Part shown: positions 3,368-63,112 of the stretch, in pieces | How the letters are laid out: each line of letters opens with the position of its first letter | Numbering within the stretch: the first letter of the stretch is position 1 | Source: Octopus vulgaris | Lineage: Eukaryota | DNA: 64,000 bases | Assembly: GCA_951406725.2 (NCBI GenBank) | Contig: OX597827.1 | Coordinates: 33,604,001 to 33,668,000 of the forward strand | Direction of reading: 5' to 3' | The notes under the pieces: model-generated | What the model was told of the DNA's origin: nothing | Database searches by the model: none | The model's input: the letters and a program-made list of their open reading frames with translations, nothing else | Program-made: the position numbers and the translations under genes

Positions 3368-4894
3368 TAAAATAATAAGATTGAAGAATTATTCTGTTGC
3401 TTTTAAGAGATTGATGTTTGAGCTATTGACTATTTCTCCCTAGTGCAGCTCAACTTACTGTTGTATTGAACTAACACCTGGTTAACTGTACTTTTGTAGG
3501 CTCATTGTAAGGTTATTGCTTGAGTGATTATAAGACATTGACTTTAAAAAGTTCATCAACCTAGATGTACAGATATAAAACATCTGGTTTGTATGTATGT
3601 CAGCTTGACTTAAAACCCCATTATTATATCAAGTCTTATGGTTAACAAGTTTGCTTCACAACCACATGATTCTAAGTTCAATCCTGCTGTACTGCATCTT
3701 CAGCAGGTTTATTTTAGCAGGCTTGGTTGTAAATAAGAAGCATATTTCCCAACCATGTAAGATGTAAACACCCACCACATTGTTAATTAGTGTCAAATAT
3801 TACATTATGTGTATGTGTCATAGCTGGCTGGGTCAGCAGAACTTCAGATGATTGACAAAAGAATATTGTCTTTACACCTGTCACTAGCATAACACATCCA
3901 GTGGAGCATGCTTTCTTCATTTCTCTCCAACCTATTGTTATCTACTGTACTACAGATATAACCAAGACACCTAGCACTAGCTGATTCAGCACACTTTCTC
4001 ACTCTGCATTCCATGTCAGTTTCTCTACTAAATCCAAGAACTATAAGTCAAAGTAGAAGAAAGTACCAGTGGCATGAATTTGTTTAAGGTGGACCTCAAC
4101 TTGTCAGAAAGTGACCCACACACTTGATTTCATGACCTTCCTCTGTGGCATACATAGAATGAAACATGCAGGATTCAGTTATGAAGCTGCAACAGACTTC
4201 CACTAACCTGGTTATAGTTATGAGTGGCACCTTCTGTAGCATGTCTGTCATGCGTAGCCCTCATCTGTTCATTCAGCTGTTGAAATTTGTTGTACTCATC
4301 ATCCACTTGTTCCATTGTTCGTTATCTACAGCATAGGCATCTTATAATCAACCACATACAGGAGGTGGTTAAATGTCATACTATAACAATTGCATATGTA
4401 TCTATTCCTGGTTTAACATGTTGTTAATTCAAAACAGGTGTTAGTACCAGGATTAAATTGGAATAAATAGAAGGTTCCATGAAGTATTTTTCATTAAAAA
4501 TCAGTTGCATTTTTACAGGGTTTATTTTTAATCTATAAAAATATCTTTCAATCAGTGGTAGATTATTTTTAACACCTGTTTGTTATTGGAACTTATGTTT
4601 CTAGAATCTTCAACAGTAAAATTCTTAGGCTCCTATTTTTCTTGAGTTATGGAATTGTTAATAAGCCACTATCATCAAATTCATTTGCAGTATTTTTTTT
4701 TTTTGGTGTTTGTGTGTTCTATTTTTCTCCCCTGCTCAATATAGAGAAACAGTTTTAGGATCTGTAGCGTTATGTGTTGGCTCTTATATTTCTTCAGATT
4801 CTTGAAGCATATGTATGTATGTATATATTTTTTCTAAAATTCACTTTCAGAGTCTAGAAGAAAGGGCTAGTGGCTTTTACAGGCAACCATCTGG

Positions 4895-20445: not shown

Positions 20446-20591
20446 AGGTATGCGTGTGTATTTGTGTGTAAATGTGAATATATATATATATACCGGAGTA
20501 AACACATAAATGTGAAACAAGGTGGAAAAAAGAGTACTCAAATACCAGTGGTAGAGTAATATGCTTTATTTTAAGCAGCAGAAAATTCAAC

Positions 20592-20638
20592 AAAATCTGT
20601 TACTCTGAGTTTCTCGTTGCCATTCATCAGACAGTTTT
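20592..20638 (-). ncRNA. Type I hammerhead motif in the left arm of the same inverted repeat
   Basis: Reverse complement of 21228-21274 with one C>U change in stem II (UG-GCAA-CG). Confidence 0.65.
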
Positions 20639-21227
20639 TGCTAGAATGGAACCGATACATCAATTCAATCTAGACTCTTACAAACGCTACACCTTTAAAA
20701 AAAAAATGGACTTGTTTGATTGGCCCTTTAGAAAAAACGGTCAATCTTCGAGCGATAAAAAAAGGTCAAAAATATATGTATATATATATAAAAACTTATA
20801 AAAATTTATAAAAATTATAAAATTCGAGGAAAAAACCTTACATTGAATAAAATACATATTGACGTTAATGAAGAAAGTATAATTAAAGCATAGAAATTAA
20901 AACCTATTATAAATATTACACTGCAATACATATTTATATCAAAGTGTACATATATATATCAACATACACAGAAGGATGTGTGCAAACGCCATACATGTAC
21001 AGACGTATACATATAAATCTAAAATATACACATAAATGCATGCGTACATATATGCATGCAATCCATCTCGCACGCAAGTTAAAATCATCTATGTAGCGAT
21101 TCTCATATACTGAGTAAGGGGGACGTAGAGTTGCATCAGTATCAGTTAGAGAAAAAAACGACAGAAAGGAAGAGAGAGAAAAAGGAACGAAGAAGGGGGA
21201 AGGAAAAAACGAAATAAGAAAAAAGAA

Positions 21228-21274
21228 AAAACTGTCTGATGAACGGCAACGAGAAACTCAGAGTAACAGATTTT
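21228..21274 (+). ncRNA. Type I hammerhead motif (GUA triplet) in the right arm of an inverted repeat
   Basis: AAAACUGU CUGAUGA A-CG-GCAA-CG-A GAAA CUC-A-GAG UA ACAG(A)UUUU. Confidence 0.7.
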
Positions 21275-21537
21275 GTTGAATTTTCTGCTGCTTAAAATAA
21301 AGTATATATATATATATATAAGAGTTGTAGTCTGTTAGGAATGTGGTAGAGTACAGTCTAAAGCTCATCCATATTCAAATACATACATGTATATCCATAC
21401 CTATATTTAGGCAACTATGTATATATATATATATATATACCCTCTCGGATTTGTGGGTATATATACATACCCACATAGATAAGTAAGTAAACCTACCACT
21501 TTGACTTGCGCATACATATAGCAAATCACATGTGTAT

Positions 21538-21580
<43 letters not shown>

Positions 21581-21581
<1 letters not shown>

Positions 21582-21814
21582 TATAAAATTTATGAATAAA
21601 TGAAAGAATGGAGTTGAACGACAAATTAACAAATTTCCTTTATTTTCGACATGTTTCGAAGGCTGCATATTCCTAATTGTGAAGGAATAAGGAGTACATT
21701 ATGCCGCTTTCTCATCAGGAAAAACAAGGAATTTATGTCAACATCAAGATTCACAAAAACTTTTGTTGATTTGTCGTTCAACTCCATTCTTTCATTTATT
21801 CATAAATTTTATAA
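21581..21814 (-). mobile_element. Small fold-back element: ~53-bp inverted arms enclosing a hammerhead
   Basis: TTATAAAATTTATGAATAAATGAAAGAATGGAGTTGAACGACAAATTAACAAA (21581-21633) versus its reverse complement at about 21762-21814, with 1 mismatch. Confidence 0.75.
21635..21731 (-). ncRNA. Type I hammerhead ribozyme motif, canonical core, GUC cleavage triplet
   Basis: The minus strand reads UUCCUU-GU-UUUUC CUGAUGA GAAAGCGGCAUA...UAUGCAGCCUUC GAAAC AU GUC GAAAA-UA-AAGGAA. Stem I has an internal loop, stem II is long (10/12 paired) and stem III is palindromic (ACAUGU). Confidence 0.85.
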
Positions 21815-26004: not shown

Positions 26005-26021
26005 TTTATTTATCTTTCCAG
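26005..26021 (+). promoter_or_regulatory. 3' splice acceptor (phase 0) of the ZNF terminal exon
   Basis: T-rich tract plus TTTCCAG immediately before the zinc-finger frame. Confidence 0.85.
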
Positions 26022-26720
26022 ATATGTAAGAAAGCTTTTTCACGGAAAGACCATCTGAACAAACATGAGCGCACCCATGCAGGCGAGAAACAACACAAAT
26101 GCACAGTTTGTGGTAAGGAGTTCTCACAGCGAGCGCACCTTGAGAAACATCGCAGCACTCATGCACATTCACACAATGAGCTGCACAACCAGCAGCATCT
26201 TAACACCACTGGTGCAACACTTCTACCAGCAGCCTCCCTCTCGTTGCAGCTGACAACACCACTGCCCAGCCTTACAACACAGCAACAACAGCAACAGCAA
26301 CAACATCAGTCCACAACCGCAGTGGTTGCAGCTGCTGGCGTGAATTCCAACAATGCTAACCTGACTGCTAATGCTGCATGTCTGCACCACCAAATCGTAG
26401 CTTCGGGTAACCAGCAACAGCAACAGCAGCAACAACAACAGCAACAACAGCAGCAGGGTTTGCAGGCAACAACAATGATTACATCAGCCCCTTTGGGCAT
26501 TGTCACCACAACTGGTTCATACCGGCTGGAGAACAGCTATGTATGGGCTGGAGGGTTACCAGTGGCCACAACATGGAATGCTGGCTGTGCGGTGGGGACG
26601 ACAAATAGTTCAATGCCTTGCTACACAGTTGGCCAAATCAAGTGTGAGTACCCTGATTCTGCTGAAGACTTCCAGACAGCCTTGCAGTATGGCACCAACT
26701 TGGACTACATATCTTTATAG
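26022..26720 (+). CDS. Terminal coding exon of a C2H2 zinc-finger protein (end of one finger, one full finger, His/Gln-rich C-terminus with Q8 and Q15 tracts)
   Basis: A pyrimidine-rich acceptor TATCTTTCCAG ends at 26021. The frame from 26022 reads [47 protein letters not shown] and continues in frame into track ORF 26244..26720, ending at TAG. It is 232 codons without a stop. The first Cys of the first finger must lie on an upstream exon. Confidence 0.93.
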
Positions 26721-46517: not shown

Positions 46518-46562
46518 TGTAAGATGCCCGCATTTCTACATTGTTATGCTTCATCAGTTACA
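46518..46562 (-). ncRNA. Type I hammerhead motif (AUC triplet)
   Basis: Minus strand: UGUAA CUGAUGA A-GCAU-AACA-AUGU-A GAAA UGC-GG-GCA UC UUACA. All three stems pair. Confidence 0.7.
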
Positions 46563-57029: not shown

Positions 57030-57620
57030 CATATACGTCATTATTAATGACAAGACAGCAAACTTCCTAGATGTTACATTAGATTTAAACTCTTCACTCC
57101 ACTTCCCATATCATAAACCCAATCAATTCCTTAAGTACACCAACACAGAATCTAGCCACCATAAATCTATCTGCCACTGAGGAAGTCTTCAATAACTACA
57201 CCACTAACTACAACCAAGCTCTAGCTACTAGTGATTTTTCCCTGGAGATTAGATTTATAACCAACATTAATCTTAAAGAACACCTCTCTAAACTTAACCC
57301 TAGACAAGCACTCCCACATACTGGATATCCAAACCCTCCAACTATGGTTAGATAATCTCACCTGCGTAGCACTCACATGTATAACACCTCCCCAAATCTG
57401 CCTGATAAAAGTGACAGGAGATCTATTCTCTAGTATACACCTCCATTTGCTCCATTTAGCAAGGGCTTTGCTAAAGCATTCTTTAAAATAGTAGACTCTA
57501 ATTTCCCACGCAACCACAAATATCATTTTATCTTTAACAGATCCACTTTAAAATTATCCTATTCCTCTACACCAAATATAGAATCTATTGTCACCTCATC
57601 TATCAAACGTAAACTTAGCT
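57030..57620 (+). pseudogene. Penelope-like element reverse transcriptase C-terminal/linker fragment
   Basis: ANFLDVTLDLNSSLHFPYHKPN..YTNTESSH, then PPFAPF..AFFKIVDSNFPRNHKYHFIFNRSTLKLSYSSTPNIESIV. These resemble PLE RT thumb/linker motifs and are interrupted by a stop. Confidence 0.8.
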
Positions 57621-57784
57621 CTTACTATCTAAATGCATACAACCCTACCATAGACCTGCACAACGAAAACACTAACACCACCCGCAATATCATGTCCAAC
57701 ACCCCTGGTCCTAACACTTTAAATAACTTAAATATACATAATATAATTCCTCAGAGGGTAATAGGTGCACAGTTGAAACCAATG

Positions 57785-58000
57785 CTAGTACTAATAGGAA
57801 TACTTATACTAACAGTACTAACTATATCATAACCACTACAACTACTAATAGTACTAACAATAATACTAATACTACCACCAATGGCAATATTACTATTATT
57901 CAAAATAATACTATTATTAACACTTTTACCACAAATGCTACTACTAATAGTTGCAATAATAATATCATCACCATCACCACTGCCGCCACCACCACCACCA
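57785..58000. repeat. Degenerate (TAC/TAA/CAC) trinucleotide tract
   Basis: Low-complexity triplet repeat between the PLE and Helitron fragments. Confidence 0.8.
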
Positions 58001-58444
58001 AGAATTCCACTGGTTCCAGTAGACATGCCCTTTGAATTCATGAGACTTCAATTTCCAGTAAGAGTTAGTTTTGCAATGTCAATTAACAAGAGTCAAGGAC
58101 AATCACTGAAAATTGTTGGACTTTACCTCATGCAGCACTGCTTATCTCATGGTCAGCTCTATGCTGGTTGTTCCAGAGTGGGAAATGGCAACAATCTCTT
58201 CACACTCTCACTAAATAGTAAAACTAAGAATATTGTTTATCTTACTGCTTTGCAGTGATCTCCAAATGTTACAGTAATACAAAATTCTCCAAATGTGATA
58301 CTCTGTGATATAAATCTGGGATGGTAGGATACCAATAAATGCTTTATTATTATTATTTCTCTCTTTAGTTTTGGGCCACAAGCCCAATTAGTCCTCCACA
58401 AAAGCTAGATTAAAAGGCTGCACGGAGTGAAGCTTTTAAGCTAG
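57998..58444 (+). mobile_element. 3' end of an autonomous-type Helitron: PIF1-like helicase C-terminus plus terminus
   Basis: PRIPLVP...RLQFPVRVSFAMSINKSQGQSL...SHGQLYAGCSRV (helicase motifs V/VI), stop at 58258, then hairpin AAAAGGCTGCAC-GGA-GTGAAGCTTTT and CTAG|T at 58441-58444. Confidence 0.9.

Positions 58445-62309: not shown

Positions 62310-63112
<803 letters not shown>

What the first reader, a model, noticed from the sequence alone, without database searches (positions are those of the whole stretch)
20492..21307. Element with two hammerheads in inverted 81-bp arms; the sense-strand ribozyme could be sequestered in the ZNF pre-mRNA
Seen: near-perfect inverted arms (20559-20639 / 21227-21307), each containing CUGAUGA..GAAACUC-A-GAGUA, enclose ~590 bp of AT-rich non-coding sequence. 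The right-arm ribozyme is the only intact-looking hammerhead on the ZNF sense strand. Inference: in the presumed intron it would pair with the earlier-transcribed left arm. That 80-bp duplex would block self-cleavage and could be an ADAR substrate in a lineage known for heavy A-to-I editing.
Basis: partly seen in the sequence, partly recalled or inferred. Interest (0 to 1): 0.72.

Follow-up and report, generated by a model that had tools for sequence, protein, structure and literature searches.

The report
Penelope retrotransposon end with inverted arm
The two mirror-image hammerhead motifs are the ordinary footprint of a very common Penelope-type jumping gene that landed in a TA repeat inside a zinc-finger gene's predicted intron; the arms are predicted to pair, but a lone ribozyme of this kind likely cannot cut anyway, so this is likely not a gene-control device.

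Summary
Arms 20559-20642 and 21224-21307 are 81 of 84 complementary and each carries a type I hammerhead motif. They lie in a predicted 38.7-kb intron of a + strand C2H2 gene. The element is the truncated 3' end of a ~3.4-kb Penelope-like retrotransposon with Hydra-clade motifs, joined head-to-head to a short second copy and set in (TA)n. The layout is a family footprint. The 36-nt ribozyme core has 3,553 exact copies, 28 of 68 sampled clusters are head-to-head pairs, and 19 of 20 fetched pairs have the ~72-nt tail on one arm only, as here. The arm duplex is predicted to form and could be edited like other inverted repeats; editing was not testable. The ribozyme looks dimer-dependent (active monomer fold p~1e-4) and no same-strand partner was found in the intron, so sequestration is probably not needed to protect the pre-mRNA. 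Ordinary locus. One side lead: about half of the family's copies have their 5' end just upstream of the ribozyme, not at its cut site.

The parts
20478..20491 (.). (TA)n target remnant, left side
   Evidence: family ends abut (TA)n at 4,756 long-end and 4,126 short-end exact sites
20492..21224 (-). Main copy: 5'-truncated 3' end (non-coding 3' UTR / pseudo-LTR) of a Penelope-like element, reaching about 596 nt upstream of the ribozyme core, with a ~25-nt deletion near its 5' end
   Evidence: 87-96% identical to 40 other places listed; maps to the 3' end of ORF-bearing units
20492..20563 (-). 72-nt optional 'tail' (long 3' end), on this arm only
   Evidence: one-sided in 19 of 20 fetched inverted pairs
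20597..20634 (-). Left hammerhead motif (type I; predicted cut after GUA at 20601); one CpG-type change in stem II
21224..21302 (+). Inverted second copy (short 3' end, no tail), beginning 9-12 nt upstream of the ribozyme core, at the family's 5'-end hotspot; A/T-run microhomology at the junction
21232..21269 (+). Right hammerhead motif (type I; palindromic stem III, 2-bp stem II; predicted cut after GUA at 21265)
21303..21320 (.). (TA)9 target remnant, right side
26022..26720 (+). Last coding exon of the host C2H2 zinc-finger gene; the predicted 38,710-bp intron upstream contains the element
   Evidence: Pfam zf-C2H2; phase-0 donor and acceptor with a split finger

Best explanation
This is a young, 5'-truncated insertion of a high-copy Penelope-like retrotransposon with Hydra-clade motifs: two copies of its hammerhead-bearing end sit head-to-head in a TA repeat, likely because the element's enzyme cut both DNA strands and copied its RNA from each, and the arms are likely a by-product with no role for the host gene. 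Shown: family identity, copy number, head-to-head geometry, one-sided tail, (TA)n target and an RT-fold ORF in long copies. Inferred: (1) the GIY-YIG endonuclease nicks both strands of (TA)n; (2) reverse transcription starts at two internal sites 72 nt apart, one per strand, giving one long and one short 3' end; (3) the two cDNAs stop early (about -596 and -12 from the core) and are joined through an A/T-run microhomology. In the ZNF pre-mRNA the arms are predicted to form a ~80-bp duplex that may be edited incidentally and would leave with the intron. The ribozyme is predicted to need a same-strand partner, which the intron lacks.
For: Family: 2,533 first-look candidates, 40 scored; 3,553 exact 36-nt cores, reversed control 0. 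Long copies: hammerhead-to-hammerhead unit of 3,453 nt around an ORF. The predicted fold matches reverse transcriptases including telomerase (mean pLDDT 84, E ~1e-6 to 1e-4). Motifs RWK, DKT, YRDDG, CxCX5C, GVVY..YTG, CxxC and CxH are present, matching the Hydra definition (PMC8557442 section 11). Stems I and III match the Acropora Hydra-2 hammerhead except for the loop base (supplement). Geometry: of the first 100 listed cores, 28 of 32 neighbours within 6 kb are head-to-head, with 0.7 expected by chance; 543 mini-palindromes; tail on one arm in 19 of 20 fetched pairs. Literature describes the same features: inverted 5'-truncated copy and one-sided tail, dual hammerheads 100-700 bp apart on opposite strands, both strands cut and extended from two internal start sites. 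Ribozyme: monomer active fold -0.4 kcal/mol, p 1e-4; the two-strand MFE has intermolecular stem III, -14.6 against 2 x -5.1. Of 10 stem II variants among 100 listed copies, 7 are CpG transitions and none is compensatory.
Against: The element's own ORF pieces gave no Pfam hit and no sequence hit in the PDB. GIY-YIG support is indirect: the motif, 2 of 60 aligned rows and Atlas clusters. The unit is 3.35-3.47 kb, longer than the 'generally <3 kb' of Hydra, and no tree was built. RWK is in only 48 of 120 homologs. Twin priming is not distinguished here from fold-back self-priming (PMC3846280). Folding energies ignore tertiary contacts and protein help; the Anolis PLE ribozyme cut when its protein was added. 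Whether this insertion is fixed or polymorphic was not resolved, so later co-option is not excluded.
Confidence: 0.93

Rival explanations
1. Functional sequestration: the right-arm ribozyme could cut the ZNF pre-mRNA, the left arm masks it, and A-to-I editing could loosen the duplex and tune expression.
For: Predicted intronic and on the sense strand; duplex predicted; 24 and 33 adenosines in the arms; octopus has one of the two strongest hyper-editing signals and lizard Penelope repeats are heavily edited (PMC5625713 passages); a PLE ribozyme can be protein-assisted.
Against: The freed arm is not predicted to fold into the active form; no same-strand partner found in the intron; the same geometry occurs at hundreds of loci; the copy is young (96% to its nearest relatives) and stem II decays by CpG transitions across the family.
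Confidence: 0.04
2. A MITE or other DNA transposon with ~80-bp terminal inverted repeats that happen to contain the motif.
For: Near-perfect inverted ends, non-coding interior, TA flanks.
Against: None of the other 29 fetched top copies has this short right arm at this position, and most continue 5' into more family sequence; arm lengths vary from ~80 nt to several kb; the two ends differ by the tail; long copies encode an RT-fold protein.
Confidence: 0.01
3. Two independent insertions, or a later inversion, placed two copies back to back.
For: The arms differ at 3 of 84 positions; the family is abundant.
Against: Head-to-head neighbours are far above chance and strongly oriented (28 head-to-head, 1 tail-to-tail, 3 same-strand). 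No host DNA lies at the junction, two of the three mismatches are at the arm edges, and the one-sided tail rule holds.
Confidence: 0.02

Closest known systems
Hydra clade of EN+ Penelope-like elements (Craig et al. 2021, PMC8557442), e.g. Hydra-2_Amil, Penelope-3_HM, Penelope-13_HM, Hydra-1_Obim
   Same: RWK, DKT, CxCX5C, CxxC and CxH motifs; (TA)n target; hammerhead near the 3' end with the same stem I and stem III as Hydra-2_Amil apart from the loop base; Penelope-13_HM is listed with an inverted 5'-truncated copy and hammerheads on both strands.
   Different: Longer unit (3.35-3.47 kb); stem II only 2 bp with an A-A at its base; the hammerhead differs from that listed for Hydra-1_Obim, so this is another family. 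Whether it is already in Repbase, Dfam or the O. vulgaris repeat library (PMC13282606) was not checked.
Minimal / dimer-type PLE hammerheads (Cervera and de la Pena 2014, PMC4209133)
   Same: Type I topology, palindromic short helix III, pairs 100-700 bp apart on opposite strands in truncated PLEs.
   Different: Stem II is far shorter than the 7-8 bp of the Schistosoma motifs and lacks the conserved G10.1-C11.1 pair.
Anolis Poseidon PAc (Frangieh et al. 2024, PMC11167929) and Adineta Pen2a (PMC3846280)
   Same: [quoted passage not shown]
   Different: Tail is ~72 nt here against 30-40 nt; the ATG lies about 200 nt downstream of the hammerhead, not within it.
Inverted-repeat ADAR substrates (PMC5625713)
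   Same: Long, near-perfect duplex from a repeat folding on itself inside a pre-mRNA.
   Different: Editing at this locus is untested.

Membership tests
EN+ Penelope-like element | Single ORF with a reverse transcriptase domain | tested here: met
   Long copies (ORF frameshifted in the copies read): RT fold matches incl. TERT; YRDDG in 118 of 120 homologs. The window copy is non-coding.
EN+ Penelope-like element | C-terminal GIY-YIG endonuclease | tested here: inconclusive
   GVVY..YTG motif, Pfam GIY-YIG in 2 of 60 rows, Atlas clusters with GIY-YIG at 21-47% of members; no direct Pfam hit; domain not fold-searched alone.
EN+ Penelope-like element | Partial tandems forming direct pseudo-LTRs around the ORF | tested here: met
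   Same-strand hammerheads 3,352-3,465 nt apart.
EN+ Penelope-like element | Inverted 5'-truncated copy at the 5' end | tested here: met
   This locus; 28 of 68 sampled clusters.
EN+ Penelope-like element | [quoted passage not shown] | tested here: met
   This locus; 19 of 20 fetched pairs (20 of the 28 pair-bearing clusters were fetched, mostly the short ones).
EN+ Penelope-like element | Hammerhead motif in the pseudo-LTR | tested here: met
Hydra clade | RWK, DKT, CxCX5C linker, CxxC and CxH around the conserved E and N | tested here: met
   All found in L031 against the definition.
Hydra clade | Insertion into (TA)n | tested here: met
Hydra clade | Generally shorter than 3 kb (a tendency in the paper, not a strict criterion) | tested here: not met
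   Unit 3.35-3.47 kb.
Hydra clade | Placement in the Hydra branch of an RT tree; absence of the CCHH motif | not tested
   No reference proteins aligned, no tree built.
Type I hammerhead ribozyme | Core CUGANGA, GAAA, UH and stem I | tested here: met
Type I hammerhead ribozyme | Stem II closed by G10.1-C11.1 | tested here: not met
   A-A then 2 bp and a GCAA loop.
Type I hammerhead ribozyme | Stable active fold as a monomer | tested here: not met
   p~1e-4, z~0; dimer helix III favoured.
Type I hammerhead ribozyme | Self-cleavage after GUA | not testable with these tools
   Needs an in vitro assay.
Non-LTR retrozyme | Non-coding tandem units, each with a hammerhead | tested here: not met
   The unit carries an RT ORF and this locus is inverted, not tandem.
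MITE / TIR DNA transposon | Fixed terminal inverted repeats shared by all copies | tested here: not met

The most novel reading that the evidence does not exclude
The family records the Penelope copying cycle in its ends. Each mirror insertion has one long and one short 3' end, and about half of all copies stop 5-22 nt upstream of the hammerhead rather than at its cut site. These short arms would be 'strong-stop' cDNAs: reverse transcription started inside the 5' pseudo-LTR of an uncleaved RNA and ran off its real 5' end, a start site or splice acceptor just before the ribozyme. That would yield hundreds of ~250-nt two-hammerhead palindromes per genome and in-genome evidence that the template RNA is not ribozyme-cleaved.
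Probability: 0.35. Interest if true: 0.45.

Novelty: new member of a known kind. Interest (0 to 1): 0.17.

Why it matters
For the locus itself, little: it is one of thousands of similar ends. It warns that 'two hammerheads in inverted arms' in this genome is a Penelope footprint. The family's end statistics are a cheap genomic test of how Penelope-like elements prime and finish cDNA, which has only been studied in vitro for one element among the papers read here.

Tried and rejected
Rfam: no match at gathering score, no hammerhead family among weak hits. Pfam and PDB sequence searches of the family ORF: nothing. Full-length ZNF orthologue: not found in three searches; the exon join rests on splice signals, phase and the Argonauta protein P0004. 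Sequencing runs: no holder on record as RNA was listed, and only assembled contigs were available, so editing, strand and splicing could not be read. Empty-site test: contigs of 4 runs laid on 21195-21413 were cut at the TA repeat and dominated by other family copies; no joint and no bridging record, so fixed versus polymorphic is open. No read evidence for the intron was obtained. Idea that copies begin at the ribozyme cut site: 26 junctions of the type searched, scattered, against 543 ending upstream of the core; only junctions next to a short partner arm were searched. Papers: a search for hammerhead + octopus + ribozyme gave 8 papers, 7 listed, none about such a locus by title or abstract start. 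Earlier scan notes near this place or by sequence: none.

Full report
Observation. The arms are real: 20559-20642 and 21224-21307 are 81 of 84 complementary with 581 nt between them, and the element folds far better than shuffles (z -14.7). Each arm has a type I hammerhead motif, with the core starting at 21236 on + and 20630 on -. The shared arm proper ends at 21302; the last five pairs come from the flanking (TA)n. The left copy runs 72 nt further, to 20492. Both ends abut (TA)n.

Host gene. The window holds only the last coding exon of a C2H2 gene (26022-26720). Scanning 200 kb upstream found an exon ending in a consensus donor at window -12689. It is in phase 0 with the acceptor at 26021 and completes a split zinc finger that is continuous in an Argonauta protein. 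The element therefore lies in a predicted 38,710-bp intron on the + strand; no reads confirm this. The 21236 motif is the only + strand hammerhead-like motif my descriptor found in that intron. The intron has 9 inverted pairs of at least 80 bp and 80% identity, and this one is the closest-spaced and most identical. That the host is an octopus-like cephalopod is my inference from the Argonauta match and the 2.8-Gb genome.

What the element is. A genome search gave 2,533 candidates, 40 scored; the other copies match the left 720 nt or less at 87-96% and most run on 5' into more family sequence. Ten longer stretches showed a unit of 3,453 nt between same-strand hammerheads, enclosing one frameshifted ORF. 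That protein has 2,428 relatives at E <= 1e-30, the best 120 being about 500-750 aa. Its model (mean pLDDT 84) matches reverse transcriptases, telomerase among them. It has RWK, DKT, CxCX5C, GVVY..YTG, CxxC and CxH, the marks given for the Hydra clade of Penelope-like elements, which also target (TA)n (PMC8557442 section 11). The paper's supplement lists an Acropora Hydra hammerhead with the same stems I and III apart from the loop base, and a Hydra family with an inverted copy and hammerheads on both strands. Against this: no direct Pfam or PDB sequence hit, GIY-YIG in only 2 of 60 aligned rows, a unit above 3 kb, and no tree.

The geometry is a family footprint. The 36-nt ribozyme core occurs 3,553 times exactly. 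Among the first 100 listed, 32 neighbours lie within 6 kb (0.7 expected) and 28 of them are head-to-head, i.e. 28 of 68 clusters. I fetched 20 such clusters, mostly the short ones. In 19, one outer end has the tail and the other does not, as here; one (L056) is an odd duplicate. Genome-wide there are 4,126 short and 4,756 long ends on (TA)n and 543 mini-palindromes with the two motifs directly back to back. Published descriptions agree: an inverted truncated copy with a one-sided tail (PMC3846280 and PMC8557442 passages), hammerhead pairs 100-700 bp apart on opposite strands (PMC4209133), and an enzyme that cuts and extends both strands from two internal start sites (PMC11167929).

Mechanism (inferred). 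The endonuclease nicks both strands of (TA)n. Each nick primes cDNA at one of two sites 72 nt apart. One cDNA reached about 596 nt past the core, the other 9-12 nt, and they were joined at an A/T run. Fold-back self-priming, proposed in PMC3846280, is not excluded.

The ribozyme and the duplex. The motif has a palindromic stem III and a 2-bp stem II without the usual G-C closing pair. The active monomer fold has probability about 1e-4, and the arms alone fold no better than shuffles. Two strands together prefer an intermolecular stem III (-14.6 against 2 x -5.1 kcal/mol). A single S. mansoni PLE hammerhead did not cut and tandem ones cut weakly; the Anolis one cut only with its protein. The duplex is the same on the other strand. 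Stem II variants are mostly CpG transitions (7 of 10 among 100 listed), as expected for neutral decay. Editing is plausible, since inverted repeats are the main ADAR targets and lizard Penelope is heavily edited (PMC5625713 passages), but only contigs were available, so it was not testable.

Side lead. Exact 18-mers number 3,803 at -9..+9 from the core, 1,930 at -22..-5 and 1,415 at -64..-47. About half the copies therefore end within a short stretch just upstream of the ribozyme; subfamily variation also lowers such counts. No pile-up was seen at the cut site (26 scattered junctions). The spot resembles both an initiator and a splice acceptor (consensus recalled, not tested). This explains why the right arm looks like a neat ribozyme cassette.

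Sources seen: PMC4209133 and PMC11167929, parts 1-2 of 4; 10.64898/2026.07.22.740005, part 1 of 5 (its supplement is closed); PMC8557442, passages, section 11, a supplement search and part 2 of 59 of the supplement; PMC3846280, PMC5625713 and PMC13282606, passages. The last does not mention ribozymes in its main text; its repeat library may already hold this family.

Verdict. A real feature, already explained in kind: a truncated, inverted Penelope-like insertion. Confidence 0.93, interest 0.17.

Noticed in passing
window 21581-21814: A second, unrelated insertion 270 bp away with the same design: 53-nt inverted arms (98%), a - strand type I hammerhead at 21718-21648 with a long stem II, attached to (TA)n. 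Likely another Penelope-like family.
   Followed up: partly
window 46523-46557, - strand: Another hammerhead-like motif with a 5-bp stem I.
   Followed up: no
genome-wide; e.g. L043-L052: 543 palindromic ~250-nt insertions with two hammerheads back to back, centred on a CTAG; 5' ends cluster 5-22 nt upstream of the core. Similar fold-back junction letters appear as loose ends in a presumed RNA run.
   Followed up: partly
L035, about 150 nt downstream of the 5' hammerhead core: A TATA-like TATAAAA just after the tail and about 55 nt before the ORF's ATG; a possible promoter that would compete with a start site upstream of the ribozyme.
   Followed up: no
L058 (G000:C1:64214100-64222500): A fully mirrored double insertion: two ~3.36-kb units head-to-head with four hammerheads.
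   Followed up: partly
L070:3400-4360, about 96 kb upstream of the window: Another multi-finger C2H2 exon on the + strand, a neighbouring ZNF gene.
   Followed up: no
window 57434-58258: ORF pieces resembling a PIF1-type helicase end (weak Pfam helicase hit), possibly a Helitron remnant.
   Followed up: no
window 62359-63021: About 660 bp of (CAT)n followed by (CAG)n.
   Followed up: no
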